This document shows positions 7,378 to 57,455 of a stretch of DNA of 64,000 nucleotides, in pieces (the first letter of the stretch is position 1; each line of letters begins with the position of its first letter). The notes under the pieces were generated by a model. It had not been told where the DNA came from. It saw only the letters and a list, made by a program, of their open reading frames with translations, and searched no databases. Source of the DNA: Myxococcota bacterium (lineage in GTDB: Bacteria > Myxococcota_A > Polyangia > HGW-17); assembly GCA_018821305.1 (NCBI GenBank), contig JAHJMN010000189.1, positions 55,115-119,114 on the forward strand, written 5' to 3'. The translations under genes and the position numbers were made by a program.

Positions 7378-7470
7378 TAGTTCGTGTCCGGAAATCGTCA
7401 AAGACGACAACTGTTTTCACCGAAAACAGTGAAAGTCCTGAGAGAAAAACTGTATTCAGGACAGTAACTG
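7378..7470 (+). mobile_element. MITE-like intergenic repeat, short copy with terminal inverted repeats plus internal module cgtcaaagacgacaa.tgttttca.cgaaaacagtga.agtcctgag
   Basis: tagttcgtgtccggaaat ... caggacagtaactg; the internal module recurs at 41.1 kb and 44.4 kb. Confidence 0.65.
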
Positions 7471-7650
7471 CATAATAATGAATATGTTCCATTTTGCTTT
7501 TTTTTTCAACAAACTCTTGTACCAATTTCGAAAATGATTCTTTACAGGTGAGGTTAATTTGGCGACTTAAAGATTTCAGCTTGAATTTATATCTGAAATA
7601 CTTTTTACTTTAAAACTAATAGGAGACACAAAGCGCCTCCTGAGGAATAC

Positions 7651-8406
7651 ATGAATCTGAACTCATTCAAATGGCTCGGTTATTTTTTCCTTCTCTCCGG
7701 AATGGGGATTGTAACCCTCTCCATGGGCTGGATTGCTGGATTTCACGGTCTCGGTACCCTCATGACTGTCTCATTAATTCCTCTTCTTCTGGCTGTTCTT
7801 ATTTCGTTTTTTGTCATCAATATTCAGGAGAACGATCTTAAAAAAAGAGACCTGGAACGGAATCTGAACATGAGAACAATACAATTACAGGAAGCAAATC
7901 AGATAATCCGAAGGATTTCTACTAAAGATAGACTGACAGGGCTGTACAATCGCCGGGGACTGAGAGAATTATTGAAACGTGAAATACTTCGATGTGAACG
8001 TCTCAAGACATCCCTTGTTGTTCTGGCAATTACATTTGATGAAGGACGCGATAAAGATAATATAAAAAGATACTCAATGATGAGCGTTCTTGGTAAAAAA
8101 TTGTCAAACTACATTCGCTCTACTGATGTTTTTGCGAGGGTAAGCGAAGATACACTGGCAATTCTTCTTCTGGATACTGGAGTAGATGGTACAAAAATCT
8201 TTCTCGACAGACTTTATGAACAGTTGAACCAGAGCAGTTTCCGATTTCCCGTTTTCAGAGCAGGGTTGGCAATTTTTCCAACACACAGCCCTAATCCTGA
8301 TGATTTAATTAACATGGCTATGCATACGGCGAAACAAACGAACCCAGGCGATATGGGAATTTCTGACGGATTTATACCCGACAATGTACACTCCGGGATT
8401 GACTGA
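7651..8406 (+). CDS. membrane-anchored degenerate GGDEF-domain protein (GGDEF replaced by SEDT; I-site RxxD retained)
   Basis: Two N-terminal TM helices. DRLTGLYNRRGL matches the GGDEF-domain start. The position of RYGGEEF reads RVSEDTLAILL. RSTD sits five residues upstream, matching the I-site RxxD. Confidence 0.65.
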   Translation: MNLNSFKWLGYFFLLSGMGIVTLSMGWIAGFHGLGTLMTVSLIPLLLAVLISFFVINIQENDLKKRDLERNLNMRTIQLQEANQIIRRISTKDRLTGLYNRRGLRELLKREILRCERLKTSLVVLAITFDEGRDKDNIKRYSMMSVLGKKLSNYIRSTDVFARVSEDTLAILLLDTGVDGTKIFLDRLYEQLNQSSFRFPVFRAGLAIFPTHSPNPDDLINMAMHTAKQTNPGDMGISDGFIPDNVHSGID

Positions 8407-8407
8407 T

Positions 8408-8549
8408 TAGTTCGTGTCCTGTAATTCGCTTCGCGAAGGATTTTATTAAAAATCCTAACAGGCCACTATTAATATTTTCAACATCTTGTGGTTACTATCC
8501 AGGAAAAAAAATCGACGAAAAATCTTTGTATTACAGGACATTAACTAAT
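8408..8549 (+). mobile_element. MITE-like intergenic repeat (module A copy)
   Basis: tagttcgtgtcctgtaattcgcttcgcgaaggattttattaaaaatcctaacaggccacta ... gtattacaggacattaactaat. The terminal inverted repeat is GTCCTGTAAT / ATTACAGGAC. Confidence 0.7.
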
Positions 8550-8659
8550 TATTCCTCTGTTTTTTATCAGTTTTTTCTTTTCTTTTTAATATTTTGCTTT
8601 ATGAAGTAACTGTTTTGTTTGTTTGTTTTAAATTTATTTATTTTACCATAGGAGGCCAT

Positions 8660-10435
8660 ATGAGGATTTTCATTTTATCAACCACTTTTCTACTACTCTG
8701 GTCTACAAACGCCAGCGCTGCTCAGGAACTGCCTAATTACAGATCTTTTTATAATACTCTTCAGAAAAAAGTTGCGGATATAAAGAGAGAGTCTGTTTAC
8801 AACACAACAAAAAAACCAGAGAAAAAAGCCAAACGAAATTTGTTTCGTATGAAAGTAGGATCGAAAAGCATCGATTATTCAAAACTTGATGCAGTAGTCC
8901 TGCCAATAGATCCTCTGAAATTTGACTGCTCACACACAAATATATCCCGGGGTATGCCAACAGATCCGAGATTTCGCAAGGGTTCAATCAAATCTGCCCT
9001 CAGTTGGGCAAAGGATTATCTTTTCTCATCTAAACCATCAAGATCCGGCCCCGTCGAAGCTTGCAACAAAGGCATGTGGAACCTCATGAAAGCCAGATGC
9101 ATGGACAGCCGCGATCCTGAAATCGCACAACTCTATGTTAAAGGACGAACACACTGTCGTCGTGTTTTCAGGCGATGGTGGGTTGAAGAAACCTATAAAG
9201 CTGAAGGAAAAGAAATCCCACTGTGGGCCGTAGACCCCTCATCTTTGACGGAGCAAATTGCATCGAAAATCAGGTGGGGCGAGAATTACCTTAAAACTCC
9301 ATCAAAGTGGTACAGTTACATGATTGAATATTTGGATATTCTCTCAATCGATCCCAAAAATCGTTTTGCAAAAAAAGGTTTCGATATCATGTACTCCAGC
9401 TACTTTGGAGTGTCCCAGGACGAAGCTCGTAAGGCCAGAAAATCAGGAATCCTTGGTGGACCTCTTTCTACCCTCCCAAAGTCTGATTTGTATAAAAAAG
9501 CAATTAATGAACTCCTCGGAAAGCATCATACAGTTTCTGGTAATATCCCAACACTTGGGCTGACTTACAGAGATGTTAATTATCTTCTCACGATGGTTTA
9601 TCTACCTGCTATTCGGCGTAATCAATCTCAGTTCGCTTCACTCAAATGCTCAATTAATCTCAGAAAAGGCATGAAGGATTTTCGTGAAAAAGCTGTTACC
9701 GAAGAAATGAAACTGGAAAAATCCAGATATTGTTACCCATCAAGTCTCACGGTAGCAGGATCTGATGTAATGCGATACCCGACCATAAGACTGAAACTTA
9801 TTGAGATTCTTTCAAAACAAACAGATACACCTGCCGATGTCTATGCCGAAGCAGCTAAAACTGTGGCCAGACAAATCGGAGCTAAAAAATCCAGAGTCTG
9901 CTGGCTCCATGAAAATCCATATCCGGAGTCAATTAATCCATCTGCTGGAAATAAAGCAAATTGCTCAAGTTTTGGTCATTCTGGATACCACAATGTTCGA
10001 CCCGGTTTTTATAACTATGTATATGAACCAGTCAAACTGAACACTTTAACCTTCCTTCAGGTTAAGCTTGCAAGAAAACTTATTAAAGATATTCCTGCTG
10101 CATCAGGCCTTGACGGCAAACTTGCAAGAGTTGAAAAGAGAGCAAAAAAAGAAAAATGTCTCGCATGGGATATCACCATAGCATGGGATTACTTTGGGCG
10201 TGGAAAATGGGGAAAACCATACCGCTATTCAAACGGTGGACCTAAAGAAGTAAGCTGTGGTTCATTCGCAAGAAGTGGATTATTTTCTACAATTTTCAAG
10301 ACATGGAACAACTTTTTTGACACTGTTTTTGGCGGCCGTTTTACTGGAGGCGAACGAATTATTCGTCGTCGCTACAGTGGAGTTATACTCCGGAAAACTC
10401 GGGAAGGCCGACTTTTTGTAAAGCGTAAAATCTGA
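8660..10435 (+). CDS. secreted hypothetical protein, K/R-rich
   Basis: ATG at 8660 has AGGAGG six nt upstream. Signal peptide MRIFILSTTFLLLWSTNASAAQE. The ORF-track start at 8594 is a TTG and probably spurious. Confidence 0.55.
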   Translation: MRIFILSTTFLLLWSTNASAAQELPNYRSFYNTLQKKVADIKRESVYNTTKKPEKKAKRNLFRMKVGSKSIDYSKLDAVVLPIDPLKFDCSHTNISRGMPTDPRFRKGSIKSALSWAKDYLFSSKPSRSGPVEACNKGMWNLMKARCMDSRDPEIAQLYVKGRTHCRRVFRRWWVEETYKAEGKEIPLWAVDPSSLTEQIASKIRWGENYLKTPSKWYSYMIEYLDILSIDPKNRFAKKGFDIMYSSYFGVSQDEARKARKSGILGGPLSTLPKSDLYKKAINELLGKHHTVSGNIPTLGLTYRDVNYLLTMVYLPAIRRNQSQFASLKCSINLRKGMKDFREKAVTEEMKLEKSRYCYPSSLTVAGSDVMRYPTIRLKLIEILSKQTDTPADVYAEAAKTVARQIGAKKSRVCWLHENPYPESINPSAGNKANCSSFGHSGYHNVRPGFYNYVYEPVKLNTLTFLQVKLARKLIKDIPAASGLDGKLARVEKRAKKEKCLAWDITIAWDYFGRGKWGKPYRYSNGGPKEVSCGSFARSGLFSTIFKTWNNFFDTVFGGRFTGGERIIRRRYSGVILRKTREGRLFVKRKI

Positions 10436-10563
10436 TTTCCCCACCTATCCTTTGATTCCTGCTTCTTTTTACAAACTATTAATAAAATTATTAGTGAATA
10501 AAAAATTACCGGTGTTATATTGGCACCAATTCACTTCTTGCAGCTTTCTGGAGTTCTCAAGCG

Positions 10564-13500
10564 ATGATTTCCGATAATTTTCAGTCTTCGCCACTTTTCA
10601 ATCAAATAGTTGATAATATTCTTGAAAATGTTGACATTAAACTTAGCTCCGGGGATCTGGCTGATCTTCGCACTGTTCTCGTGGGAGCAAGGAATCAACT
10701 TATTTCCATTGAAAGAGAACTCGCTAATCTGAGTATAAAAACTGAAGAGATAAAGCGAGCAAATAAAAATTTTCTCAAATTGTATAATAGTGCTCCAGTT
10801 GGTTACCTGAGCATAGATATTGAAGGAAAAATTATTTCAATTAATATAACTGGAGCATCTCTTCTGGGCAAGCTTCAGATAAATCTTATTGGAGATAACT
10901 TTTTCACTTTCTTATCTAAAGACGAACATGAGCTTCTTTCGGAAAAGATCAGAAATACCGCTATCACCGGGGAATCATTTAAGCATGATCTGACAATTAA
11001 CCGACCTAACGGTTCAATGATGCATGCAGCTCTCGAAGGCGAAGTTGCCTCTTCTCATGACGGTTTTTTCAATATTGTTATCAGTGATATTACCATCCGT
11101 AAAATTTCCGAAATGGCCCTCAGGCGTTCGGAAGGATGGTTTCGAGCAACAATTGACGCCGTAAGTGAAATACTTGTAGTTGTCGATCCTTCTCTTAGAA
11201 TTCTGCTTTGTAATGAAGCATTTAGAAGGCAAATGGCCAGGATTAAAAAGTTTTCTGAACCTGTGGGTGAAAACATTATTGATTTTTGTCCATTTTTGGG
11301 TGAACGAGAGCGCAATGAATTCCAATGGATTTTCGAAACGGGCAAAGCAGTCAACTCGCGTATTGATTTCAAATCGGACTCCTTTGATTTGTTTCTTGAA
11401 ACTCGGCTTATTCCTATTTTCGATAATCAGGGAAAAGTAGTTCAGACCCTTGGCGTAATGACAAACATCACTGATAAAGTGATTGCCACAAATGCCAGTG
11501 AAGAAAAAGAAGTCTACCTTAAGGGCATTATTGAAAATGCTAACGACATAATCTTTTCTTTCAATCTCGACGGTTCAATTACATATATTTCCCCGGCGTT
11601 TTCTCGAATTCTAGGTAGAAATACCAGAGATATTCTAGGGAAAAATCTTTCTTCAAACCTTCATGCAGACGACATTGCCGAGTGGGAAAAAGCTACCAGA
11701 GTACTTCTTACGGACCATGAACCAATACGGAACCTTAAAATCCGTTTTAAAAACAAAAGCAATGAATGGTGGTGGTTTCTTGTAAGTATGTCTATTGTTG
11801 AAAACAAAGATGGCAACATCATCTATGGAGTCGGTGTTGCGACGGATATTAACGCACTCATTAAATATCAGGAAGCACTGGAAGAATCACGTCTTAGTTA
11901 TAAAGAATTATGGGAAAGTCAGGGAGAAGGTGCCGCTTTTCTGGATCCCAATGAAGTATTTATTCATGTTAACCCCTTTGGAGAAAAGATTTTCGGTCTT
12001 GACAGAGGTGTTCTCAAAGGTCGTAGTCTTCTTGAATTTGTTGATAATCAGGACCTGATTACGCTCCGTAATGAAACAAAGAAAAGGAAAAAGGGAGAGT
12101 CCAGTAACTACGAGCTCAAAATTAAACTGCCGGATGAAACAAATCGCATTATTTCAATTACTGCAGCGCCTAAATTTGATGACGTGGATGGAACGTACCT
12201 CGGAACTTTTGCTATTTTCCGTGATATCACTTCCAAAAAGGAACTCGAAAACAACCTCAGGAACAGTGAAGAAAGACATCGACAATTATTTGAAAATAAT
12301 GCTGCGGTGCAACTGATTATAAGCGCAATGGATGGAAGCATTATTGATGCAAATCCCGCAGCAAGTAAGTTTTATGGACATTCCAGAGAAAAATTGCGAT
12401 GCATGAACATGACTGATTTGAATGGTCTGACAACGGATCATGTCAAAGAATTTATTCGTCAGAGATTAGAAGAAGAAAAGTATATATTTCATCTTAAACA
12501 TAAACTGGCAAGCGGCGAACTACGAGATGTTGAGGTTAAAACCAGCCCCGTAAAGATAAACGACGACCTTTTAATTCACTCTTTTATTACTGACATAACC
12601 CAGCAGCGTTTGAGCGGGGAAAAATCAGCACATCTCGAAAGAATGCTCATCCATTCTCAGCGAATGGAAGTTTTCGGTAATATAGCCAAAAGCTTAACCA
12701 CAGAATTTTCTACAATTTTATCCGAGATTGGAGAAAAAACTACATTTCTGCGGAAAGGTGGCCAACTTCCGCCGGAATCTGCGGAAATAGATTCTCTTAT
12801 TGAAAAGGGACAAAAGCTTATAAACCATATTCTTATGTTTGGCTCTAATCTCCCCTTTGAGCTACAAAAGTGGGATCTTATCCCATTTATCGAAAGAATG
12901 CAGCCCATCATCGGTATGATTCTTGGTGCAAACTATGAGCTTTCCTTTCAACTCAAGGGTGGTGGAAGTGTCTTTCTTGACCCAATTCTTATGGAGCAGG
13001 TCATTGTCAACATAATTACAAACAGTCGTGATTCAATGCCGAGAGGTGGCTCTGTTACCGTATCAACTGATACTGCAACTTTTGCTGAACCCAGCCACGC
13101 TCTGGGTCTCTCTTCCGGTCGGTACTCAGTTATAACAATTCATGATCAGGGAGTGGGCGTAGAAAAAGAAATGGAAAAACACATTTTTGAACCATTTCTT
13201 ACCACCAGGCGTATCAAGTCCTCTACCACAGGCTTGTCCCTGATTACCGTGCATGGAATTATGAAACAACATTTGGGTGCCATTGAATTAGTTAATGAAT
13301 TTGGCGTTGGGACCATGGTCAGACTATATATGCCACTGATTGATGGTGTTGAAGTAACAACCTGTGATGATAGAATCCTGAATAAAACTGTACTTATTGT
13401 AGACGATGAAGAGGGGATAAGAGCCGTAACCCGGAAAATTCTTGAAATGGAAGGATTAAGAGTAATCGAATCACCGTCAGGAGAAGACGCACTTAAGTTT

Positions 13501-21963: not shown

Positions 21964-23619
21964 TTATGATTTTAAGTATTTTTCTGCAGACTCAATTATC
22001 TTCATAGGTAGCCCAAGTATACCTGCAATTAAAATCGCATCATTTTTCTTTACTTCATCACCACTAAAAATTGTATAGTCCATCAAATTATTTAATATAT
22101 TCAATGTCAATTCAGCGTTTTTTATCTTATGCAAATTATTTTTAAGGCTTCCTGCACTAAGAGACAAAACGCCTGGATGTTTTCCTGCTTCATGAATATG
22201 CCCTGCGAAAATTGCAAAGTTGTGATCTCCTACTTTTATATAGTCAAATAAAGCTTTAGTAAGGGCTAGAGCTGATTCAACATCTGTACTTCTAGCAAAT
22301 TCATCAAAAAGTAGAAAATAGTCACTCCCATCAAGAGATGTAATGAGATCTCTTATTTCCCGCCCAAATGACGAAAGGCCCTTTTCGGGAGAGTCGGAAA
22401 CGGATCCTAACCAACGGATAGATTTAAAGAGTCTTGAACTGAAACTTGTGCATGGCAATCCAGCTCCCATTTGAAATAATGCTTGAAAAAAGCCGGCTGT
22501 CCTTAAAAATGAACTTTTTCCACCCATATTGGGCCCTGTAAGGTTAACCAACTGCGATGTAATTAAAACTGTCACTGGAGTATAGGTGCCACCACAGTGT
22601 TCCACCTGTTTTTTTATCCAGGGATGAACTCCACCCTTCAAGACAAATGAATTTTTGTCTTCAATAATCGGAATGCAGCAATTGTATTCTTTATTAAAAA
22701 TTGCCAGTGCATTACACATATCCAATTTTCCTAAAAGCTCTAAATCTGACTTATAAATATCTCTAAGAACCAACCAGATTTCCCTGGATATCTTTCCAAA
22801 TAGTTTCTTTTCCAAAAGAAAAGTTTGTTTTTTGATTTTATTAAGTTTTTCTAATACCTGGTCAATTTTCGGTGTTGACCCAAGCCTGTATTTCCAGCTG
22901 TCCTGGCTGTTCTCAAGCAGATTAAAATAACCACTTTTCAAAATAATTTCATTGAATCCAGGGTTATCTTTTCCAACCACCAGGTCCATTCTGAGAGATG
23001 ATTGCTTAATCCCGAGGAATTGGGCGGCTTCTTTTCGGTGTTCCTGTTCTAAAAAAGAAAGCTGATTACTCAAATCATATCGATTTTTGCGTAAATCCTG
23101 TGGCAAACCAATCCCACAATTAAAGCAATCATCAGATATATATGGACCAATTATATCCAGAGCCCGGTCCCAGTTATCTGAAAAACCCCAATATGGATCA
23201 CCATTGCTTTCCAGTAATATATTTTTAATAAGACCAATAGCGTGAGCTATCTTAAATATTACTGTCAACTCAATGTCAGTCCAACTCTCATAACTTTCTT
23301 CAAAAACTGAAATATCACGCACAGATTTTAAGGCTCTGAGAATTATGTTCCCATTTAGCTCTTTGTGAATAATTTCTGACCAGGATTTTAATCGGAAAAA
23401 GTGCTCCTCAAGCTCTTTTTCCATTCCTGTAATGAAAAACGAAGGTTTTTGAAGCCAGATACGTCCAGGTTCCGAATTAACACAAAGGGAATCAAGGAAC
23501 TGCTTGAAAAAAATTGTTTTACTGGTTACAGAATCCAGAAATTCGTTTTTCTTGTTAAAATCAGTCAAAACCTGAAAACTCCACAGTCCAAACCATCCAG
23601 TTACTGTCCTGAAATACAA
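21964..23619 (-). CDS. MutS2-family ATPase (MutS domain V, no mismatch-binding domain); 5' end lies inside a MITE copy and the start codon is uncertain
   Basis: Walker A LTGPNMGGKSSFLRTAG, Walker B-like FLLFDEFARSTD. The track's N-terminus MYFRTVTGW translates a MITE terminal inverted repeat. The true start may be the TTG/ATG downstream (VLTDFNKK... or M at about 23424). Confidence 0.65.
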   Translation of the reverse strand: MYFRTVTGWFGLWSFQVLTDFNKKNEFLDSVTSKTIFFKQFLDSLCVNSEPGRIWLQKPSFFITGMEKELEEHFFRLKSWSEIIHKELNGNIILRALKSVRDISVFEESYESWTDIELTVIFKIAHAIGLIKNILLESNGDPYWGFSDNWDRALDIIGPYISDDCFNCGIGLPQDLRKNRYDLSNQLSFLEQEHRKEAAQFLGIKQSSLRMDLVVGKDNPGFNEIILKSGYFNLLENSQDSWKYRLGSTPKIDQVLEKLNKIKKQTFLLEKKLFGKISREIWLVLRDIYKSDLELLGKLDMCNALAIFNKEYNCCIPIIEDKNSFVLKGGVHPWIKKQVEHCGGTYTPVTVLITSQLVNLTGPNMGGKSSFLRTAGFFQALFQMGAGLPCTSFSSRLFKSIRWLGSVSDSPEKGLSSFGREIRDLITSLDGSDYFLLFDEFARSTDVESALALTKALFDYIKVGDHNFAIFAGHIHEAGKHPGVLSLSAGSLKNNLHKIKNAELTLNILNNLMDYTIFSGDEVKKNDAILIAGILGLPMKIIESAEKYLKS

Positions 23620-23665
23620 AAAATCAAATTTTTAACCGATTTTTTTCTCAGGACACGAACTATCC
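23599..23665. mobile_element. MITE-like intergenic repeat, minimal copy (terminal inverted repeats plus about 30-nt core)
   Basis: agttactgtcctgaaatac aaaaaatcaaatttttaaccgatttttttc tcaggacacgaactat. Confidence 0.65.
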
Positions 23666-25115: not shown

Positions 25116-25126
25116 ATAGTTACTGT

Positions 25127-25172
25127 CCTGAAATACCGAAAATCAAATTTTTCGCCGATTTTTAGCTCAGGA
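25127..25172. repeat. MITE-like repeat fragment (module C) immediately upstream of the 25181 gene
   Basis: tagttactgtcctgaaataccgaaaatcaaatttttcgccgatttttagctcaggag. The final AGGAG acts as the ribosome-binding site for the ATG at 25181. Confidence 0.55.
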
Positions 25173-25180
25173 GAACAAAA

Positions 25181-25945
25181 ATGCTTTCTCTTTTCATGAT
25201 TGTTTTGTTTTTGCAATCCCAGGAAGCCAGAATACTCTTTCCTTCAAGGGTTGTAGATTTTGAAAAATTAGTAAACGATGGGAATTTTAAACCAATTGAG
25301 GACTGTCCCAAAGCTGGGGGATTTGTTGCTGGATGGGAAATGTCTCTGAAATGTTCCAATGTTTCAGGAATCAAAGAAGTTTTTGTTTCCGGAGAACCCG
25401 TATCTGATAAACACACACTGATTCCGTGGGAAGTCGAACCGGAGCATTTTGCCACAATTATAAGATCCGTGTTCTCACCGGAAACTTGTAAACAGGGAAT
25501 CCATATTATGACCAGTCGAAGACTTCATAAATATTCAATTTTATTAAGCAAAGCCATCAATCAATCCGGACTGAAAGCGACGTCTGAAACTATGGAAACT
25601 GAAGTAGTTGCACTTAAATCAATAGCACTGCTTTATCGTAAAAGAAAACAAGCATACTCCGCAATCTTACCATTGAACGACCCCGGGGTCATAACGCCAC
25701 TTGTGCTCAGAGAGCTTCTTCAACTGCAGTTCCGGCGAGGAATACCACTAATCGTAAGATCGAGGCATGAAGTATTTACCGGGGGATTATTTGCTGTGGA
25801 ACCCATAATGACGCTTGACTTTATAAAAAATCCTAATCCACAAACTCTATCTTATAAAAAGTATTTCAACCCAAAAACTGCTTTTTCTCTGGGATTGGGT
25901 GGCAAAGTTTTTGAAAAAAATAATTTTATGGCAATGACGAGGTAA
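25181..25945 (+). CDS. secreted hypothetical protein, likely co-transcribed with the downstream sensor kinase
   Basis: Signal peptide MLSLFMIVLFLQSQEA. 2-nt gap to the next gene. Confidence 0.4.
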   Translation: MLSLFMIVLFLQSQEARILFPSRVVDFEKLVNDGNFKPIEDCPKAGGFVAGWEMSLKCSNVSGIKEVFVSGEPVSDKHTLIPWEVEPEHFATIIRSVFSPETCKQGIHIMTSRRLHKYSILLSKAINQSGLKATSETMETEVVALKSIALLYRKRKQAYSAILPLNDPGVITPLVLRELLQLQFRRGIPLIVRSRHEVFTGGLFAVEPIMTLDFIKNPNPQTLSYKKYFNPKTAFSLGLGGKVFEKNNFMAMTR

Positions 25946-32451: not shown

Positions 32452-32764
32452 TGTAGCAAATTACAGGACACAAATCAGGTAGTACTTATATTTTTTCAAC
32501 ATGCGGATATTGCAGATATCTAAAATATTTAAGTTTTTATTTTATCAGGCTTATTTTTTTTTAGCATAGTGATCTGAATTTTTTAACAATTGAGTATTTG
32601 ACACATTGGGTGAAACCAGTGTATATATTTGATGTGATTTCTAAAATGCGCATATTTTATAATTGCGTCTCCCCAATAGGGGTTATATTAATAAAATCAA
32701 CAGAATCACAGTTCCAGAGAATTCTCGGACAGGGTTCTGGAGTGAATCTTTTTTAAAGGATATC

Positions 32765-35243: not shown

Positions 35244-37364
35244 ATGAAGATAATCTCAATAAGTATTCTTTTGTTAATTATGGTGGCTGGATGTTCTAAA
35301 AAGTGCCCATCTTTAGAAAAAAACGAGGAAAAACAGGGACCTCAAATTAAGAAAGACACTAAATTTCATGGCGAAAAAATAAAGCCAAGGCAGGACACAA
35401 AAAAGTTGCCACATGCGCTTTCTGAAAAAATCATTAAAACACTTATATCAAAACATGGAAGCCGGGAGACTTTGAGAATTAGAAAAGGTGTAATTCAGGC
35501 ATCCAGCCTCTGGAATCCGGCTGTTGACGGTGACTCAAAAATCTTTGAAGAATTCTGCGATAAAAACTTTATTCCTGACGGTCCTGTCCGTGAAGAACTG
35601 TTCACTCGCATGAGTCGTAACCTTGAGATTGTTTACGGAAATTCCAATAGAATACGGATTGATCTTAAAGCTCCGGTGGATGTTGAAATTGGTAAGATTC
35701 TCCCTGTTGACCGGCTTTTTGCAGCATGGAATATGGCATCCCATTTTATTGAAGATATGTATTCAAGTAAAATTGCATTTATCACAGTCCTTAATTTTCC
35801 AAACTATACCCTTGAGGAAAAAAAGTCCTCCGGAACTAACTGGACACGCCTTGAATGGGCATATGCCAGACTTGGTGATGTTTTTACTTCCCGAGTCCCC
35901 TCCAGCGTTAAACAGGGAATTGAAACCGCATTTACCCAGGCAGATACATATATTTCCTCTTATAATATTTTTATGAACAATGTAATTGATGAGAAATTTG
36001 AAAGCCTATTTCCGGTGGGAATGAAACTCATTACACACTGGAACCTCAGAGATGAACTAAAGTCAAGATATGCTGACAAAACAAACGGTTTTAAAGCTCA
36101 AAAGCAGATTTTTGCCGTTATGAAGCGAATTATAGATCAGACTATTCCCGTGGATGTTATCAATAAAAATAACGCCAAATGGGACCCTGTAAATAATAAG
36201 CTTTTCCATGACAAGAAAGAAGTAAAATTCACAACTGAACCTGATACAAGATATGAATATCTTTTAAAAAATTTTATAGCCGTTAAAACTGAAGATCAAT
36301 ACTCCCCCGGGTATCCTACTTATATAAAAAGAGTTTTCGACAGGGATCTTGAGTATACGGAAACTGAAATTGAAGGACTTTTCGTAAAACTGGTTTCATC
36401 TCCTCTTGCAAAAGAGGTAGGAAAACTCATTGAAAAACGCCTCGGAAGAAAACTTGAGCCCTTCGATATCTGGTATGATGGATTTAAAACAAGATCCTCA
36501 ATTCCTGATAAAGAATTAACAGCAGAAACCAGGAAAAAGTATCTATCTGCAGCGGCATTTCATGCAGATATGCCCAGAATCCTTACTCATCTTGGCTTTA
36601 CTCCGGAAAAAGCAACTTTTATTCAATCACGCATTACAGTTGACCCAAGTCGCGGAGCAGGACATGCCTGGGGTTCGGAAATGAGAACAGATAAAAGCCA
36701 TCTCCGGACTAGAATTGGCCCCGAAGGAATGGATTATAAGGGTTACAATATTGCGATCCACGAACTTGGGCACAATGTTGAACAGACAATTACTCTGCAC
36801 GATGTTGATTATTATTTGATGAAAGGTGTTCCAAATACTGCTTTTACAGAGGCGTGGGCATTTATCTTCCAGCGTCGAGATCTTGAACTTCTTGGTAAAA
36901 AAGAAACAGATCCTCTTCGCCAACATCTTGCTGTGCTGGATAATTTCTGGTCTTCTTATGAAATAATGGGAGTAAGTCTTGTGGATATGAAAGTGTGGCG
37001 ATGGCTGTACGCTAATCCCAACGCTGACAAGACAAAGTTAAAAAATGCGGTGATTTCTATTGCAAAAGAAGTATGGAATCTTTACTTTGCACCGGTATTT
37101 GGTGTAAAGGATCAAACAATTTTAGCAATTTATAGTCATATGATTGATTATCCACTTTATTTACCGGCCTACCCAATTGGGCATCTGGCCGAATTTCAAA
37201 TTGAACAGCATATTCACGGAAAAAATATCGGGACAGAAATGACCAGAATCTGCTCTCAGGGACGCCTGGTGCCGGACCTCTGGATGAAAGGGGCAGTAAA
37301 CAATGCTCTGAGTGTTGATCCAACTCTGAAAGCCACAACTGAAGCTCTTAAAAATGTTAAATAG
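35244..37364 (+). CDS. putative gluzincin zinc metallopeptidase, lipoprotein
   Basis: Lipobox LIMVAGCSKK. HELGH (HExxH) with a downstream Glu in TEAWAF; 706 aa. Confidence 0.5.
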   Translation: MKIISISILLLIMVAGCSKKCPSLEKNEEKQGPQIKKDTKFHGEKIKPRQDTKKLPHALSEKIIKTLISKHGSRETLRIRKGVIQASSLWNPAVDGDSKIFEEFCDKNFIPDGPVREELFTRMSRNLEIVYGNSNRIRIDLKAPVDVEIGKILPVDRLFAAWNMASHFIEDMYSSKIAFITVLNFPNYTLEEKKSSGTNWTRLEWAYARLGDVFTSRVPSSVKQGIETAFTQADTYISSYNIFMNNVIDEKFESLFPVGMKLITHWNLRDELKSRYADKTNGFKAQKQIFAVMKRIIDQTIPVDVINKNNAKWDPVNNKLFHDKKEVKFTTEPDTRYEYLLKNFIAVKTEDQYSPGYPTYIKRVFDRDLEYTETEIEGLFVKLVSSPLAKEVGKLIEKRLGRKLEPFDIWYDGFKTRSSIPDKELTAETRKKYLSAAAFHADMPRILTHLGFTPEKATFIQSRITVDPSRGAGHAWGSEMRTDKSHLRTRIGPEGMDYKGYNIAIHELGHNVEQTITLHDVDYYLMKGVPNTAFTEAWAFIFQRRDLELLGKKETDPLRQHLAVLDNFWSSYEIMGVSLVDMKVWRWLYANPNADKTKLKNAVISIAKEVWNLYFAPVFGVKDQTILAIYSHMIDYPLYLPAYPIGHLAEFQIEQHIHGKNIGTEMTRICSQGRLVPDLWMKGAVNNALSVDPTLKATTEALKNVK

Positions 37365-37433
37365 TTAATGTCCTGTAATTCGACATTTTCAAGTTAATGA
37401 CGAATTTGTACACAGGACATTAAGAATGAAGGC
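37362..37433. mobile_element. MITE-like intergenic repeat, minimal copy
   Basis: tagttaatgtcctgtaattcgacattttcaagttaatgacgaatttgtacacaggacattaagaatgaagg. A further terminal-repeat-like fragment (ctattaatgtcctggaaat) spans the start codon of the next gene. Confidence 0.6.
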
Positions 37434-37593
37434 CTTGAAATTATTGTAGTGTGTCCTGTTCCCTGATTCCCTTCAAAAAAACAACAGGAGCTTGCAAGAA
37501 GGAGCTGGCGATCAATGTTGTCCGAAAGGACAAACGGTATTTTTGAGTTATCTCTATTTTAATGTAACAGTTGAGGTCCGAAAGGAACTATTA

Positions 37594-41071: not shown

Positions 41072-41356
41072 CTTCGTGAAGCGAATTAGTTACTGTCCTG
41101 AAATACCGTTTTTCAAATTTTTTGCCGATTTTTTGCTCAGGACTCTCACTGTTTTCGATGAAAACAATTGTCGTCTTTGACGATTTCCTTCGGAAATCCG
41201 TTTTAGACAGTAACCGCAAGGTGCTTACGCTTCCGCGCTTCGCTGCGCGAGAGCGCTATAGTTGAATTTATTACTAGTGGCCTGTTAGGATTTTTAATAA
41301 AATCCTTCGCGAAGCGAATTACAGGACACGAACGAATTACAGGATACAAACTATTT
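41072..41356 (-). mobile_element. MITE-like intergenic repeat, longest copy (modules A, B, D, C); reverse complement of the 44.3 kb copy with an extra insert of about 50 nt
   Basis: The reverse complement reads ttcgtgtcctgtaattcgcttcgcgaaggattttattaaaaatcctaacaggccact ... ccttgcggttactgtctaaaacggatttccgaaggaaatcgtcaaagacgacaattgttttcatcgaaaacagtgagagtcctgagcaaaaaatcggcaaaaaatttgaaaaacggtatttcaggacagtaactaat. Confidence 0.75.
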
Positions 41357-43147: not shown

Positions 43148-44035
43148 ATGCCCTCATCAATTCCAACGTCTCTTTATCCCGCAATGGTTGCCGGTATTAT
43201 TGGTTGTATCCTGCTTCTACCCCAGTTTTTCAGATTATTTTTTGTTCAGCCTATCAACATCCCCATATTTTCGAGTGTTATTCAGAAACTGATTATTGCG
43301 GGTAATATTGAGCGGGCTATTAAACTCTGCAGTGCCGCCCCCACGGCTTTAATTGCTCGTGGTACAAAAGGAGTCCTTCAGGGCGTTATGCGTGGAGAAA
43401 AAGATCCCGAATCAATCAGAAGGAATTTTGTTGATCAATTTTCCCCCTTAACTCTTGATGGCGAATTAAACAGGTATCGCACTTTAAGCGCATTGGGCTT
43501 TGCTATCGCCATCGGAGGCGGCGCTTATACAACGCTGGCATTGAATGTCCCTCCTGGAAAACATCTTATCCCTGTTGGTGTTGCCGTTTTCCTTGATTTT
43601 ATAATTATTTTTCGGACTATGAAAATGAAAACACAAATTCAAGGATATCTAATTTTTATGTCCCATGTTTTTGCGGGAGAAAACCAGAGTTCTATCGCTA
43701 AAGTAAATGAAAAAATTAAAAACCACGCTTGTCCTGCTTGTGGAAAAGAAAACCCCGAGCATTACCGATTCTGCCTTGGCTGCGGTGGAGATCTTAATCA
43801 AGGTAGGCTAACAGAAGGTGCAACCACTGACGAACAATCTGAGGAGATTGGAAATTTTGTTACCGAAAAATCAAATACTGCTTCCTCAAAAAAAGTTGTC
43901 TGCAAGAATTGCGGTTCTGAATTGAAAGTAGCAGCTTCAGTTCTTGAAGAAATAAATTCAGAGTTTGACATTTTCTCCCGTATTGACTCCTCCTGCCCCA
44001 AGTGTGGCTCCTCATTCTTTGAACTCCATGGGTAA
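43148..44035 (+). CDS. membrane protein with C-terminal double zinc-ribbon
   Basis: N-terminal TM helices. CPACGKENPEHYRFCLGCGGDL and CKNCGSELK...CPKCGSSFF. Confidence 0.5.
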   Translation: MPSSIPTSLYPAMVAGIIGCILLLPQFFRLFFVQPINIPIFSSVIQKLIIAGNIERAIKLCSAAPTALIARGTKGVLQGVMRGEKDPESIRRNFVDQFSPLTLDGELNRYRTLSALGFAIAIGGGAYTTLALNVPPGKHLIPVGVAVFLDFIIIFRTMKMKTQIQGYLIFMSHVFAGENQSSIAKVNEKIKNHACPACGKENPEHYRFCLGCGGDLNQGRLTEGATTDEQSEEIGNFVTEKSNTASSKKVVCKNCGSELKVAASVLEEINSEFDIFSRIDSSCPKCGSSFFELHG

Positions 44036-44074
44036 ATTTGGTTCATGTGCTTAGTAATAAGATTGTGAGTTATT

Positions 44075-44282
44075 TTAAAGAAATGCTTCAGGAATGAGCC
44101 CCCTGTTTTCCTGTTCCTGCTACTGATTTCCTGTTTATCTGAAATTTTTTAACAGGTACTCAGGCAGTCAGATAAACAGGGGCAGGGTCAGATCATAAAC
44201 ATCTAATATCAATGTAAAATTACAAAAACTAGAAGTAAATATTCACTTTTTAGATTTTGATCCTTTTACTCATGAAGCGGTT
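44075..44282 (+). repeat. Repeat B, copy 1: direct repeat of about 230 nt with internal 13-bp inverted repeat
   Basis: ttattttaaagaaatgcttcaggaatgagccc...cctgttttcctgttcctgctactgatttcctgtttatctga-N30-tcagataaacagg...; about 75-80% identical to the 45.2 kb copy. Confidence 0.6.
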
Positions 44283-44497
44283 TAGATCGTGTCCTGTAAT
44301 TCGCTTCGCTAAGGATTTTATCAAAAATCCTAACAGGCCACTACTAGTAAATTCAACACCTTGCGGTTACTGTCTAAAACGGATTTCCGAAGGAAATCGT
44401 CAAAGACGACAATTGTTTTCATCGAAAACAGTGAGAGTCATGAGCAAAAAATCGGTAAAAAATTTGATTTCTTTTATTTCAGTACAGTAACTATTTG
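44283..44497 (+). mobile_element. MITE-like intergenic repeat (modules A, B, D, C), plus-orientation counterpart of the 41.1 kb copy
   Basis: tcgtgtcctgtaattcgcttcgctaaggattttatcaaaaatcctaacaggccactactagtaaattcaacaccttgcggttactgtctaaaacggatttccgaaggaaatcgtcaaagacgacaattgttttcatcgaaaacagtgagagtcatgagcaaaaaatcggtaaaaaatttgatttcttttatttcagtacagtaactatttg. Confidence 0.75.
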
Positions 44498-44571
44498 AAA
44501 GCAGTAAATGACTTGCCAGTTTATGGTAAATATTCTAATCTTTTTCCAGCGAAAAGAACCGGGAGACACAA

Positions 44572-45239: not shown

Positions 45240-45480
45240 TTAAAGAAAAGCTTCAAGAGAAAGCCCATCGCATTCCGCTGCGCGAAATTGCCTACCTGAT
45301 TTTCCTGTTGTTGCTACTGATTTCCTGAATACCTGATTTTTTTAACAGGGAATCAGGAAGTCAGGTAAACAGGGTCAGGAACAGCGGATAACCATTCAAT
45401 ATCAAATAATAATTAAAAAGAACGTAATTTTTAATTCAATTTCCCAATTTCGATCCTCGTACTCAGGAAGCGGTCTGGAT
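45240..45480 (+). repeat. Repeat B, copy 2
   Basis: ttaatttaaagaaaagcttcaagagaaagccc...ctgattttcctgttgttgctactgatttcctgaatacctga...tcaggtaaacagggtcagg... Confidence 0.6.
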
Positions 45481-51245: not shown

Positions 51246-51396
51246 TAGTTCGTGTCCGGAAATTCGCTTCGCGAAGAATTTTATTAAAAATTCTATCCGG
51301 CCACTACCAGTAAATTCAACACCTTGCGGTTACTGTCCTGAGCAAAAAATCGGCGAAAAATTTGATTTTGGTTATTTCAGGACAGTAACTAAATAG
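51246..51396 (+). mobile_element. MITE-like intergenic repeat (modules A, B, C), first of three abutting copies
   Basis: tagttcgtgtccggaaattcgcttcgcgaagaattttattaaaaattctatccggccactaccagtaaattcaacaccttgcggttactgtcctgagcaaaaaatcggcgaaaaatttgattttggttatttcaggacagtaactaaat. Confidence 0.75.
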
Positions 51397-51575
51397 TTCG
51401 TGTCCTGAAATTCAATTTTGGTCAAAATTGAGCATGTTTACGAAAACATGCTATTCAGAACACTATAATAATTTCAAGGTCTTCATTCTTAATGTCCTGT
51501 GCCTTAATTCGGCATAAACTTGAAAAGATCGTATTTCAGGACATTAACTAAATAGTTCGTGTCCTGCAAAGAACC
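51397..51575 (+). mobile_element. MITE-like repeats, second copy (module E: ttcattcttaatgtcctgtg...atcgtatttcaggacattaacta) plus a third truncated terminal repeat
   Basis: agttcgtgtcctgaaattcaa...cttcattcttaatgtcctgtgccttaattcggcataaacttgaaaagatcgtatttcaggacattaactaaatagttcgtgtcctgcaaag. Confidence 0.65.
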
Positions 51576-52036: not shown

Positions 52037-52070
52037 TTCTTTAACAATCACAAAATTTGACCTATTTTCT

Positions 52071-52730: not shown

Positions 52731-52750
52731 TATTGACTCCGCGGATTCAG

Positions 52751-52812
52751 TAGTTTGTGTCCTGTGTTAAGATTTGACTTAAACTTCAAAGAGGGTTTAC
52801 AGGACATCAAAA
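52751..52812. repeat. MITE-like minimal repeat
   Basis: tagtttgtgtcctgtgttaagatttgacttaaacttcaaagagggtttacaggacatcaaaaac. Confidence 0.55.
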
Positions 52813-52849
52813 ACTTAGACTACATGAAATTTGAAAACTCACAAGAGCG

Positions 52850-56103: not shown

Positions 56104-56111
56104 TTAAAATT

Positions 56112-57242
56112 TTAGAGCTCGCTGGTTTTAACCATACTGAGAAGAATTCCAGGACTGTGAGATCCAAGAAAAATGCTTTCCGTCAGAAAACTTCCGGAAA
56201 CAGTTTTGACTTCAAAGCCACAGGACGTGACAAGAGACTTCAGTTCCCCGAGGGACCAAGCCCTTACAAGGATCTTATGATTTCGCTGTCTTCCGTTCAT
56301 AAAAGCAGTATTTCTTTTAATCTGAACTCTGGATTCGTCATGAATAAAATAACTTTCATCCATAACCATACAGCCGTTTCCTTCCCACCATATTCTTGAC
56401 GGGAGTATGCTCACTGCAAAATCCCGATTTACAGCGTGAATAATAGCACGTCCGCCAAGTTTGAGATTGCGGTTAAGAAGTCGGATTATTTCGTTGTTTT
56501 CTGCATCGGTGAAGTATCCGAATGATCCTCCAATGCAATACAGGGCATCAAATTGAGTCTGAGAGATAAAATCTCTCATGTCTTTTTTAATAAAATTTAC
56601 TGCCGTGTTAAGTTCTTTAGCTACCTGAGATGCCTGCAGAAGGAAAGGAACCGAAGTATCAATCCCGGTAACATCACAACCTTTTGATGCCAGAGCAATA
56701 GCATGACGACCGTCTCCACAGCCAATGTCCAGCACTTTTTTCCCAGTTTCGAGAGCCAACTCTTTCATCAGAAAATCGACTTCCAGCTCCGTTATAACCC
56801 GGGAAGGGGATTTCATCGTCAGAAGATACTCGTCATCAAAAAAATTATCACTCCAACCGGATTCTTTCTTCACGGGCATCGGAGGAGGTTTTTTCTCTCC
56901 CGTTGGAATTGCCGGCGGTTTTGGAGGTGGAGGAGTTGGAGGAGGCTTTGTCTGTTTTTCATCCCCCGACTCTTCTTCAATTTCTTCAATTTCTACTTCT
57001 TCCTCATGGGTAGAAGGTTCATCTTCCTCCACATCTTCCGCATCAATTGCAATCTCTTCTGAAATCTCCCGGGGGGATGATAGCAGATCATCCATAGTTA
57101 CGGGTCTAAGCGAATAGCCCATAAACCCCGTCAGAGAATTGAAAATATGGACATCCCGGCTGTCATCGAGATCCACACCCAGTTTTGACAATTCTTCCTT
57201 ACTATAAAGGTTTTTCTCCATATGCCCGCCCTTTTGCTGCAT
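56112..57242 (-). CDS. class I SAM-dependent methyltransferase with acidic and Pro-rich N-terminal linker
   Basis: Motif I VLDIGCGDGRHAIALASKGCDVTGID. Linker EDVEEDEPSTHEEEVEIEEIEEESGDEKQTKPPPTPPPPKPPAIPTGEKKPPPMP. Confidence 0.7.
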   Translation of the reverse strand: MQQKGGHMEKNLYSKEELSKLGVDLDDSRDVHIFNSLTGFMGYSLRPVTMDDLLSSPREISEEIAIDAEDVEEDEPSTHEEEVEIEEIEEESGDEKQTKPPPTPPPPKPPAIPTGEKKPPPMPVKKESGWSDNFFDDEYLLTMKSPSRVITELEVDFLMKELALETGKKVLDIGCGDGRHAIALASKGCDVTGIDTSVPFLLQASQVAKELNTAVNFIKKDMRDFISQTQFDALYCIGGSFGYFTDAENNEIIRLLNRNLKLGGRAIIHAVNRDFAVSILPSRIWWEGNGCMVMDESYFIHDESRVQIKRNTAFMNGRQRNHKILVRAWSLGELKSLVTSCGFEVKTVSGSFLTESIFLGSHSPGILLSMVKTSEL

Positions 57243-57391
57243 AATAACAAATTAGGTTTTTAAAAACAAAATAAAAAACAGCCGGACACAAACTCTTTGT
57301 AACCTGTGAGAAAAATCAGTTCAATTTATATAGGATGACACAGCTTGTTTCCACCTTACTGCTTCCGGGAATAAAAGGATCGAAACAAGGC

Positions 57392-57455
57392 ATTCATTCT
57401 TAATGTCCTGTGTCCAAATTTGGTGTAAATTTGAAAAGATCGTATTTCATGACTG
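57392..57455. repeat. MITE-like repeat (module E copy)
   Basis: ttcattcttaatgtcctgtgtccaaatttggtgtaaatttgaaaagatcgtatttcatgactg. Confidence 0.55.

What the first reader, a model, noticed from the sequence alone, without database searches (positions are those of the whole stretch)
7378..57455. Undescribed family of modular MITE-like intergenic repeats with at least 11 copies in 64 kb
A repeated element is visible directly in the sequence, bounded by imperfect terminal inverted repeats of about 20 bp (left TAGTT(A/C)(C/G)TGTCCTG(A/T)AAT, right ATT(A/T)CAGGACA(G/T)TAACTA). It occurs at 7378-7470, 8408-8549, 23599-23665, 25127-25172, 37362-37433, 41072-41356 (reverse complement), 44283-44497, 51246-51396, 51397-51575, 52751-52812 and 57392-57455, with a fragment near 32461. 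Copies are built from interchangeable internal modules. Module A is aattcgcttcgcgaaggattttattaaaaatcctaacaggccact, itself a palindrome. Module B is gtaaattcaacaccttgcggttactgtc. Module D is aaacggatttccgaaggaaatcgtcaaagacgacaattgttttcatcgaaaacagtgagagtcctgag. Module C is caaaaaatcggcgaaaaatttgatttt. Module E is ttcattcttaatgtcctgtg...gaaaagatcgtatttcaggacattaacta. The 41 kb and 44 kb copies are near-identical reverse complements differing by a roughly 50-nt insertion. Three copies abut at 51.2-51.6 kb. All copies are intergenic, with no transposase in the window, so they are most likely non-autonomous elements. The alternatives are a REP-like system or a palindromic regulator-binding motif (GTCCTG...CAGGAC) that has been co-opted. 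They cause ORF-caller artefacts, with the same peptide KTVFRTVT appearing in several spurious ORFs.
Basis: seen in the sequence. Interest (0 to 1): 0.72.

Follow-up and report, generated by a model that had tools for sequence, protein, structure and literature searches.

The report
MITEs of an ISRm17-like insertion sequence
The repeats are real miniature transposons (62-249 bp) carrying the end sequences of a 1,683-bp insertion sequence found elsewhere in the same uncultured Myxococcota population; this is a new example of a well-known kind of selfish DNA, not a new kind of system.

Summary
An 18-nt terminal motif, TAGTT(C/A)(G/C)TGTCCTG(A/T)AAT, occurs 17-20 times in the window against 0.03-0.25 expected. 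It bounds small hairpin-forming elements in 11 of 25 intergenic gaps, about 2.2% of the window and about 20% of its intergenic DNA.

The MITE interpretation is supported.
- All 8 complete copies have matching 2-bp flanking duplications, and only in that register.
- A 1,683-bp IS with the same 19-nt ends and a 450-aa DDE transposase is present in a sister MAG, and in a sequencing run that also holds this organism. The transposase is ISNCY/ISRm17-like and scores just below the NCBIfam cutoff.
- A relative with 83-89% nt identity has empty sites at two loci. At one of them it shows a single AT where the window has AT-MITE-AT.
- A separate 7.6-kb contig of the sister MAG carries several further copies.

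The "modular" look comes from nested insertions, internal deletions and head-to-tail insertions with a 2-bp spacer. REP/RAYT, TA-targeting MITE, regulator-site, ncRNA and local-duplication readings are rejected or unsupported.

Novelty: new member of a known kind. Interest is modest.

The parts
7378..7470 (+). 93-nt MITE. It is a deletion derivative: CG-type end, part of module D, a shortened C core and an AC-type end. The 2-bp duplication is CA/CA.
   Evidence: fold -25.1 kcal/mol, z -2.75
8408..8547 (+). 140-nt MITE of subfamily 1 (A-B-C'), with duplication AT/AT. It starts 1 nt after the stop codon of 7651-8406.
   Evidence: fold z -6.1
23598..23662 (-). Minimal 65-nt MITE (two ends plus the C core), with duplication TC/TC.
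   Evidence: fold z -5.3
25117..25178 (-). Minimal MITE that fills the whole 65-nt spacer between two co-oriented genes. Its far end is degenerate (CAGGAGAACAA). Its AGGAG lies 8 nt before the ATG at 25181. The flanks AA/AA are tentative.
   Evidence: (D3, I10); read directly from the sequence
32460..32477 (-). Solo, degenerate terminal repeat with 3 mismatches.
37362..37452 (-). Truncated subfamily-2 copy, 87% identical to the reverse complement of 51460-51550. Its first TAG is the stop codon of ORF 35244-37364.
   Evidence: (I2)
41072..41086 (-). Inner half of an older MITE fragment (start of module A), split by the nested insertion.
41087..41335 (-). 249-nt subfamily-1 MITE (A-B-X-D-C) nested in the older fragment, with duplication AT/AT. 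It is absent from the orthologous site of the relative L038, which reads GGAATTACAG with a single AT.
41336..41353 (-). Outer half of the older fragment: the degenerate end TAGTTTGTATCCTGTAAT on the minus strand, of which 41336-41337 is the AT duplication. It is shared with the relative.
41223..41260 (-). 38-nt GC-rich insertion X, unique to this copy.
44283..44493 (+). 211-nt subfamily-1 MITE (A-B-D-C), with duplication TT/TT. Together with the adjacent R2 repeat it is absent from the relative's orthologous spacer (26 nt there against 476 nt here).
44375..44437 (+). Module D, a 63-nt insertion inside the MITE with its own 2-bp duplication (TC). The same unit is at 41143-41205 (minus strand) and partly at 7390-7432. 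In L037 it sits at a different site, flanked by AC.
51246..51391 (+). 146-nt subfamily-1 MITE (A-B-C) and first of three abutted copies. Flanks are AA/AA.
51394..51550 (+). 157-nt full-length subfamily-2 MITE. Flanks are AA/AA, and its left end is 19/19 identical to the IS left end.
51553..51575 (+). Truncated third copy (CG-type end only), 2 bp after the previous copy.
52751..52812 (+). Divergent 62-nt hairpin element with TGTCCTG/CAGGACA ends. The relative has unrelated sequence at this site.
57386..57455 (+). Truncated subfamily-2 copy (E segment), 85% identical to 51475-51542.
   Evidence: (D10)

Best explanation
These are miniature inverted-repeat transposable elements (MITEs), 62-249 bp long and non-coding. 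They carry the 18-19-bp terminal inverted repeats of a 1,683-bp insertion sequence that encodes a 450-aa DDE transposase of the ISNCY/ISRm17-like, IS5-related type.

The host is an uncultured bacterium that NCBI names 'Myxococcota bacterium', with about 40% GC. Full-length IS copies elsewhere in its genome supply the transposase in trans. It binds the shared ends (core TGTCCTG) and inserts the element with a 2-bp target duplication of no fixed sequence.

Insertions land in intergenic DNA. Strikingly often they land inside resident copies, or exactly at the 2-bp duplication beside one. Together with internal deletions, this produces nested composites, head-to-tail arrays with 2-bp spacers, and the 'modular' appearance.

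Shown: shared ends, duplications, empty sites, dispersal, and an IS in the same population. Inferred: trans-mobilisation by that particular transposase, self-targeting of ends, and any effect on neighbouring genes.
For: 1. The ends are hugely over-represented: 17 hits against 0.03 expected and 20 against 0.25.
2. All 8 complete copies have identical 2-bp flanks (CA, AT, TC, AT, TT, AA, AA, AG). The chance of a match is about 0.07 per copy, and shifted registers give 0-2 of 8.
3. Logan contig L031 is exactly one IS: 1,683 bp, TAGTTCGTGTCCTGAAATT...TATTTCAGGACAGTAACTA, with one 450-aa ORF. Its two terminal 19-mers are 100% identical to MITE ends in the window, and nothing internal matches.
4. 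The transposase hits Pfam DDE_Tnp_1 and DUF772 (shown for the L013 homologue). It scores 294 bits on NCBIfam NF033593 ISNCY_1. Its closest named relatives are ISRm17-family ISNCY elements at 27-31% identity. Their IS length (about 1,668 and 1,683 bp, my reading of the repeat coordinates) and their ends (TAGTGCCCGTCCATAAAC, TAGTGCCCATCCAGAAAC) resemble this one.
5. The same 90% protein cluster contains NCBI 'transposase [Myxococcota bacterium]' MBU1379810.1. That accession sits in the same series as MBU1379881/883, which are identical to window proteins. Its contig in GCA_018820545.1 shows the IS right end. Run SRR2544012 holds both the IS contig and a contig reading the same as the window over its last ~120 nt.
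6. Relative L038 (83-89% nt identity) lacks the 249-nt copy at 41087-41335. It has a single AT where the window has AT-MITE-AT. It also lacks 44029-44504.
7. A different contig of the sister MAG (L037, 7.6 kb) has 7 end matches, a complete copy with an AG/AG duplication, and a transposase remnant.
8. Each complete copy keeps one CG-type and one AC/AA-type end, like the reference IS copy L031.
9. Copies fold into terminal-stem hairpins, with z from -2.5 to -6.1.
Against: - No transposition was observed, and the link between this transposase and these MITEs rests on end identity and co-occurrence.
- The IS was not found in the window's own assembly (GCA_018819425.1), only in a sister MAG with identical housekeeping proteins.
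- The MITE interiors are unrelated to the IS interior, so they are not simple deletion derivatives.
- The three IS copies with visible flanks (L013, L033, L028) do not show matching 2-bp flanks. Two of them abut other copies.
- A whole-genome copy count was not possible.
- Module D has a 2-bp duplication but no recognisable inverted ends, which the simple model does not explain.
Confidence: 0.9

Rival explanations
1. REP/BIME-like extragenic palindromes, spread by a RAYT (Y1/HUH, IS200/IS605-related) enzyme.
For: The elements are intergenic, palindromic and often clustered in pairs or arrays.
Against: - The copies have 18-19-bp inverted termini identical to those of a DDE-transposase IS.
- They carry 2-bp target duplications at 8 of 8 copies. 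From general knowledge, REPs do not generate these.
- No Y1/HUH gene turned up in the window: Pfam on 40 ORFs. I did not see one in the gene lists of the fetched sister-MAG contigs, though I did not inspect every ORF.
- The elements are 62-249 bp, not 20-40 bp.
Confidence: 0.02
2. A MITE of the IS630/Tc1-mariner type that targets and duplicates TA. On this reading the conserved TA of TAGTT...AACTA is the duplication.
For: Every copy begins TA and ends TA.
Against: - The full-length partner encodes an ISNCY/IS5-type transposase, not an IS630-type one.
- A variable 2-bp repeat lies outside the TA in 8 of 8 copies.
- At the empty site in the relative and at the nested site, AT is what is duplicated, not the TA of the element.
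- TAGT is also the conserved tip of related ISNCY elements.
Confidence: 0.02
3. A co-opted cis-regulatory or structural element: a binding palindrome GTCCTG...CAGGAC for a host regulator, or a structured RNA, terminator or stabiliser kept by selection.
For: - The hairpins are strong.
- Some copies supply gene signals: the TAG stop of 35244-37364, and AGGAG before the ATG at 25181. In the relative, the PSD gene ends in a MITE TAG.
Against: - The elements show no orientation bias relative to the flanking genes (from the coordinates).
- Related genomes differ in presence or absence and in which insertion they carry at the same spacer.
- Rfam gives no match, even at E<=1.
- The promoter and terminator scan is not above its shuffles.
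- Individual co-option of single copies is not excluded, but it does not explain the family.
Confidence: 0.05
4. A local segmental duplication or recombination product confined to this locus, not a dispersed family.
For: Within the window the copies are concentrated at 41-52 kb.
Against: - The copies sit in 11 separate intergenic gaps across 50 kb, with unrelated flanks.
- Further copies lie on an unrelated 7.6-kb contig of the sister MAG.
- A relative carries copies at different positions.
- Short-read contigs of relatives break exactly at the repeats.
Confidence: 0.01

Closest known systems
ISRm17-like ISNCY insertion sequences (Sinorhizobium meliloti, Marinobacter; NCBIfam NF033593)
   Same: - The parent IS has one ORF for a transposase of about 450 aa with DUF772 and DDE_Tnp_1.
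- Its best family hit is NF033593.
- Its length of 1,683 bp compares with about 1,668 and 1,683 bp for the named elements (my reading coordinates).
- The terminal repeats share TAGTnCnnnTCCnnAAA.
- The Marinobacter copy also sits 2 bp from a solo end.
   Different: - Protein identity is only 27-31%.
- The score of 294 bits is below the curated 325-bit cutoff.
- Among 5.8 billion proteins, only one 90% cluster is close (75% identity to the L013 homologue used as query), and the next hit is at 33%.
- The literature I could search reports no MITE derivatives for that group.
Classical bacterial MITEs such as Neisseria Correia elements or cyanobacterial Nezha (from general knowledge, not tested here)
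   Same: They are small, non-coding, intergenic, hairpin-forming elements with terminal inverted repeats and a short target duplication. They are present in many copies, and a transposase acts on them in trans.
   Different: - The parent IS family is different.
- The duplication here is any 2 bp, whereas Correia elements duplicate TA.
- The interiors here are unrelated to the parent IS.
- Nesting and abutment are unusually frequent.
Pneumococcal BOX elements (modular boxA-boxB-boxC; from general knowledge)
   Same: The appearance is modular, with a variable number and order of internal segments between two partly complementary ends. The predicted hairpins are strong.
   Different: Here the modularity can be traced to nested insertions with 2-bp duplications and to deletions, and a cognate transposase is identified. 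As far as I recall, BOX elements have no identified transposase.
IS30-type targeting of its own inverted repeats, giving (IS30)2 dimers with a 2-bp spacer (from general knowledge)
   Same: End-to-end junctions are separated by exactly 2 bp: AA twice in the window, AT in L013, AC in L033, GC in the Marinobacter element.
   Different: The transposase family is unrelated. Self-targeting here is inferred from static sequence only.
REP/BIME elements with RAYT transposases
   Same: They are intergenic palindromic repeats that can be clustered.
   Different: REPs are 20-40 nt long, give no target duplication and use a Y1/HUH enzyme. None of these properties is seen here.

Membership tests
MITE (non-autonomous IS derivative) | Small size and no coding capacity | tested here: met
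   Copies are 62-249 bp. The only ORFs across them are spurious, up to 77 aa, with no family hits.
MITE (non-autonomous IS derivative) | Terminal inverted repeats | tested here: met
   The 18-nt ends pair in every complete copy.
MITE (non-autonomous IS derivative) | Target-site duplication | tested here: met
   A 2-bp duplication flanks 8 of 8 complete copies, and only in that register. It is confirmed by a nested site and by an orthologous empty site.
MITE (non-autonomous IS derivative) | Ends shared with an autonomous IS in the same genome | tested here: met
   The 19-nt ends are identical to the 1,683-bp IS L031. The IS is present in sister MAG GCA_018820545.1 and in a run that also holds this organism. 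It was not found in the window's own assembly.
MITE (non-autonomous IS derivative) | Multiple dispersed copies and insertion polymorphism | tested here: met
   There are 13 copies or fragments in 11 gaps and further copies on L037. The relative has empty or different sites. A whole-genome count was not possible.
MITE (non-autonomous IS derivative) | Mobilisation by the cognate transposase | not testable with these tools
   This needs a transposition assay.
ISNCY / ISRm17-like IS (the parent element) | Transposase passes the NF033593 equivalog model | tested here: not met
   NF033593 is the best hit (E 1.2e-87), but 294.4 bits is below the 325-bit cutoff. The protein is a divergent relative, not an equivalog.
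ISNCY / ISRm17-like IS (the parent element) | Similar architecture and ends | tested here: met
   The parent has a single ORF and is about 1.68 kb long. Its ends agree with the S. meliloti and Marinobacter elements at 12 of 18 positions by my count.
REP/RAYT system | 20-40-nt palindromes without target duplication, and an associated Y1/HUH transposase | tested here: not met
   The elements have duplications, their partner is a DDE transposase, and the window holds no Y1 gene.
IS630/Tc1-mariner-derived MITE | TA target duplication and an IS630-type transposase | tested here: not met
   The duplication is a variable 2 bp outside the TA. The transposase is ISNCY/IS5-type.
Any Rfam RNA family | Covariance-model match at the gathering score | tested here: not met
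   There are 0 matches at gathering scores. At E<=1 only far-sub-threshold hairpin matches appear.

The most novel reading that the evidence does not exclude
The transposase of this ISNCY-like clade uses resident ends as preferred targets. New copies insert exactly into the 2-bp duplication beside an existing copy, or into its hairpins. This builds head-to-tail arrays with invariant 2-bp spacers and nested composites.

The 63-nt module D lacks recognisable inverted ends, yet it carries its own 2-bp duplication at two different sites. On this reading it is a hitch-hiking unit moved by the same machinery. If so, this would be a documented self-targeting, array-building mode for an IS5/ISNCY-type DDE transposase.
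Probability: 0.3. Interest if true: 0.45.

Novelty: new member of a known kind. Interest (0 to 1): 0.3.

Why it matters
- **Annotation.** The family accounts for about a fifth of the intergenic DNA in this window. It breaks short-read assemblies at predictable points and creates spurious 'hypothetical proteins' in public annotation (P0128).
- **Gene boundaries.** Copies sit right at gene boundaries, and their ends can supply a stop codon or a Shine-Dalgarno-like AGGAG. They are therefore relevant to operon structure in this lineage.
- **IS biology.** The finding links a poorly characterised ISNCY subgroup (ISRm17-like) to MITE derivatives. It gives that subgroup a clear 2-bp duplication and a conserved terminal motif (TAGTnnnTGTCCTG). 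That motif also bounds IS copies in a Thermoanaerobaculia and a Hyphomicrobiales MAG, where it could be used to annotate the family.
- **Limits.** It does not open a new biological question.

Tried and rejected
- **Genome scan.** By my own estimate many hits could be chance. It nevertheless delivered the key lead (L013) and the IS copies in L002 and L028.
- **Metagenome scans.** Both scans (a module-A junction 22-mer and the right-end 19-mer) returned 0. The second pattern is present in JGI contig L033, so the collection evidently lacks that sample and the result is uninformative.
- **Extending the contig.** A look-up with the first window ORF failed, probably because the start codon was called differently.
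- **IS interior against the window.** Nothing matches beyond the 19-nt tips, so the MITEs are not internal-deletion derivatives.
- **Kinase/acetyltransferase spacer in relative L036.** The sequence there is unrelated, not a clean empty site.
- **Catalogue searches.** Rfam at gathering and at E<=1, PLSDB plasmids and INPHARED phages by blastn, and PDB for the transposase gave no matches.
- **Promoter and terminator scan.** The triple array scores no better than its shuffles.
- **Literature.** ISRm17, ISDol1 and MITEs in myxobacteria or ISNCY gave nothing relevant. The assembly accession is not in the library.
- **Alternative duplication lengths.** I considered 3-bp and 7-8-bp duplications (for example ATCCAGTT around 23598). 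They were rejected because only the 2-bp register holds across copies.
Full report
**Observation**

The motif TAGTTMSTGTCCTGWAAT occurs 17 times at <=2 mismatches, against 0.03 expected from shuffles. At <=3 mismatches it occurs 20 times against 0.25 expected. The repeat finder recovers the shared internal segments among the listed loci, and module-by-module BLAST confirms them.

After correcting boundaries there are 13 copies or fragments totalling 1,415 nt. That is 2.2% of the window and about 20% of the DNA outside ORFs of >=100 aa. They occupy 11 of 25 intergenic gaps of >=40 nt. There are no tRNAs and no Rfam hits at gathering scores. At E<=1, Rfam gives only far-sub-threshold hairpin matches.

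The window is part of contig JAHJQC010000090.1 (144.5 kb) of assembly GCA_018819425.1. NCBI names the organism 'Myxococcota bacterium', and the GC content is about 40%. Pfam on 40 ORFs finds ordinary chromosomal genes and no transposase.

**Anatomy**

Complete copies are bounded by one 'CG-type' end (TAGTTCGTGTCCTG...) and one 'AC/AA-type' end (TAGTTACTGTCCTG... on the other strand). Two full-length subfamilies exist.
- Subfamily 1 has the segments A-B-C, with or without the 63-nt unit D. Its copies are 8408-8547, 44283-44493, 41087-41335, 51246-51391 and L037 34-243.
- Subfamily 2 has a full copy at 51394-51550 and truncated copies at 37362-37452 and 57386-57455.
- A minimal 65-nt form is just the two ends plus the C core (23598-23662, 25117-25178).

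Alignment A2 shows where the 'modules' come from.
- D is an insertion with its own 2-bp duplication. It is flanked by TC between B and C in the 41-kb and 44-kb copies, and by AC inside A in L037.
- The 41-kb copy carries an extra 38-nt GC-rich insert.
- 7378-7470 is a deletion derivative.
- 41087-41335 is nested inside an older fragment.
- At 51.2-51.6 kb three copies lie head to tail, separated by AA.

Copies fold into terminal-stem hairpins with internal stem-loops, with z-scores from -2.5 to -6.1.

**Evidence for transposition**

All eight complete copies (seven in the window, one in L037) are flanked by identical dinucleotides: CA, AT, TC, AT, TT, AA, AA, AG. The chance of a match is about 0.07 per copy. 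Shifting the right flank by 1-3 nt gives 0-2 matches of 8.

The nested copy supplies an internal empty-site control. The family consensus reads CCTGTAATTCGC, while the disrupted fragment reads CCTGTA[AT]-249 nt-[AT]TCGC.

A relative provides orthologous empty sites. This is Logan run SRR32001354, contig L038, with 83-89% nt identity and the same gene order.
- Where the window has GCGA[AT]-MITE-[AT]TACAGGATAC, the relative reads GGAATTACAGTACAC, with one AT and no MITE. The older fragment is shared.
- The relative has 26 nt where the window has 476 nt (44029-44504). That stretch comprises the 211-nt MITE and an adjacent repeat of another family.

The relative also carries different insertions elsewhere. 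One MITE fuses to the 3' end of the phosphatidylserine decarboxylase (PSD) gene, and another lies in the opposite orientation upstream of the methyltransferase gene. Its short-read contigs end inside the repeats.

**The autonomous partner**

One locus, L013, had two inverted matches 1.7 kb apart. Between them lies a DDE transposase gene, broken by a 40-nt tandem duplication.

In 5.8 billion proteins its only close homologue is P0001, at 75% identity and 450 aa; the next hit is at 33%. P0001 lies on Logan contig L031, and that contig is exactly one element. It is 1,683 bp, running from TAGTTCGTGTCCTGAAATT to TATTTCAGGACAGTAACTA. BLAST of this IS against the window matches only its two terminal 19-mers, at 100% identity to several MITE ends.

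Several results place the IS in the same population as the MITEs.
- The 90% cluster of P0001 includes NCBI 'transposase [Myxococcota bacterium]' MBU1379810.1 and MBU1495652.1. The window's PSD and YgiQ proteins are identical to MBU1379883.1/MBU1379881.1 and MBU1498768.1/MBU1498766.1. From the accession series I infer that the IS sits in sister MAGs of the same population.
- Its contig in GCA_018820545.1 shows the IS right end followed by unique DNA.
- Run SRR2544012 contains both the IS contig and a contig that reads the same as the window over its last ~120 nt, which is all I compared.
- Another contig of GCA_018820545.1 (L037) was found through a spurious annotated ORF that is a translated MITE. 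It carries seven end matches, several copies, and a 33-aa remnant of the transposase C-terminus.

**Family assignment of the IS**

Pfam finds DDE_Tnp_1 and DUF772 in the L013 homologue. For P0001 the best NCBIfam model is NF033593, 'ISNCY family transposase', at 294 bits. That is below the curated cutoff of 325 bits, and IS5 and IS1182 models score far lower.

In plasmid records the closest annotated relatives are 'ISNCY-like element ISRm17 family' transposases, at 27-31% identity. Those elements have similar length (about 1,668 and 1,683 bp, my reading of the repeat coordinates). Their ends are TAGTGCCCGTCCATAAAC and TAGTGCCCATCCAGAAAC, which by my count match ours at 12 of 18 positions.

The core TAGTTnnTGTCCTG also bounds 1,716-bp IS copies in a Thermoanaerobaculia MAG contig and a Hyphomicrobiales MAG contig. 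For the Thermoanaerobaculia copy (L002) the transposase is only 28% identical to P0001. The terminal motif is therefore a clade-wide signature. The parent IS is a divergent new member of this ISNCY subgroup.

**Mechanism**

The best-supported model is trans-mobilisation. The IS transposase recognises the shared ends and inserts the small elements with a 2-bp staggered cut. This step is inferred, not shown.

End-to-end junctions are always 2 bp apart: AA twice in the window, AT in L013, AC in L033 and GC in the Marinobacter element. Nesting is also frequent. Together these suggest that resident ends or hairpins are preferred targets, as is known for IS30 (general knowledge). This too is inferred.

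The elements show no orientation bias relative to genes, and they vary between relatives. Both argue against a family-wide host function. Single copies do touch gene signals: the TAG of a MITE end is the stop codon of 35244-37364, and the copy at 25117 fills the whole spacer and places AGGAG 8 nt before the next ATG.

**Rivals**

- REP/RAYT is rejected, because the elements have duplications and a DDE-transposase partner.
- A TA-duplicating IS630-type MITE is rejected, because the duplicated bases lie outside the conserved TA and the transposase family is different.
- A regulator site or ncRNA family is unsupported.
- A local duplication is refuted by L037 and by the relative.

**Limits**

- A whole-genome copy count could not be made.
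- ISfinder could not be queried.
- IS copies with visible flanks do not show clean duplications.
- Module D is unexplained.

**Verdict**

This is a real, well-defined MITE family with an identified parent IS. It is a new member of a known kind and of modest interest.

Noticed in passing
window 44076-44282, 45245-45480, partial 57340-57385; L037 1140-1364; L033 1781-1860: A second, unrelated repeat family ('R2') is about 210-240 nt long. It has a long CCTG/CAGG-rich imperfect hairpin (fold z -3.8) and a tail ...GATCCTTTTAYTC..GAAGCGGT. It abuts MITE 44283 and an IS end in L033. Together with the MITE it is absent from the relative's orthologous spacer, so it is probably another mobile element.
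   Followed up: partly
window 44375-44437, 41143-41205, 7390-7432; L037 86-148: Module D is 63 nt (TAmAACGkATTTCC...CAGTGAGAG). It sits at two different positions inside MITEs, each time with its own 2-bp duplication (TC or AC), yet it has no recognisable inverted ends. How it moves is unexplained.
   Followed up: partly
window 41223-41260; 45265-45300; L034 about 10880-10910: A 38-nt GC-rich insertion (TATAGCGCTCTCGCGCAGCGAAGCGCGGAAGCGTAAGC) lies in one MITE copy only. A separate short GC-rich motif, CCGCTkCGCGAAATTGCCTrCCTGA, recurs in other spacers.
   Followed up: no
window 37362-37364; 25168-25183; L034 10862-10864: MITE ends supply gene signals. The TAG of the terminal repeat is the stop codon of ORF 35244-37364, and in the relative it is the stop codon of the PSD gene. 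The copy at 25117 fills the whole 65-nt spacer, and its CAGGAG end puts AGGAG 8 nt before the ATG at 25181.
   Followed up: partly
L002 2211-3926; L028 2170-3885; L039; L040: The terminal core TAGTTnnTGTCCTG bounds 1,716-bp IS copies in a Thermoanaerobaculia MAG contig (L002) and a Hyphomicrobiales MAG contig (L028). The L002 transposase is only 28% identical to this one. ISRm17-like elements of S. meliloti and Marinobacter have related ends. The Marinobacter copy lies 2 bp (GC) from a solo end.
   Followed up: partly
L033 1-112; L013 1958-1991: In L033 two full IS copies, or an IS circle or dimer junction, lie head to tail and are separated by AC. In L013 the IS right end is followed after AT by a degenerate left end. 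In L013 the transposase gene is broken by a 40-nt tandem duplication (about 494-573).
   Followed up: partly
window 2754-4937: A 727-aa ORF has tandem cysteine-rich repeats of about 150 nt (repeat finder D4 and D19). It has a sub-threshold DUF4215 match (26.4 bits against a cutoff of 27) and an SBBP beta-propeller repeat. It looks like a large secreted repeat protein.
   Followed up: no
whole window: The GC content is about 40%, in a MAG that NCBI labels Myxococcota. From general knowledge this is low for that phylum, so the lineage or the label may deserve a check.
   Followed up: no
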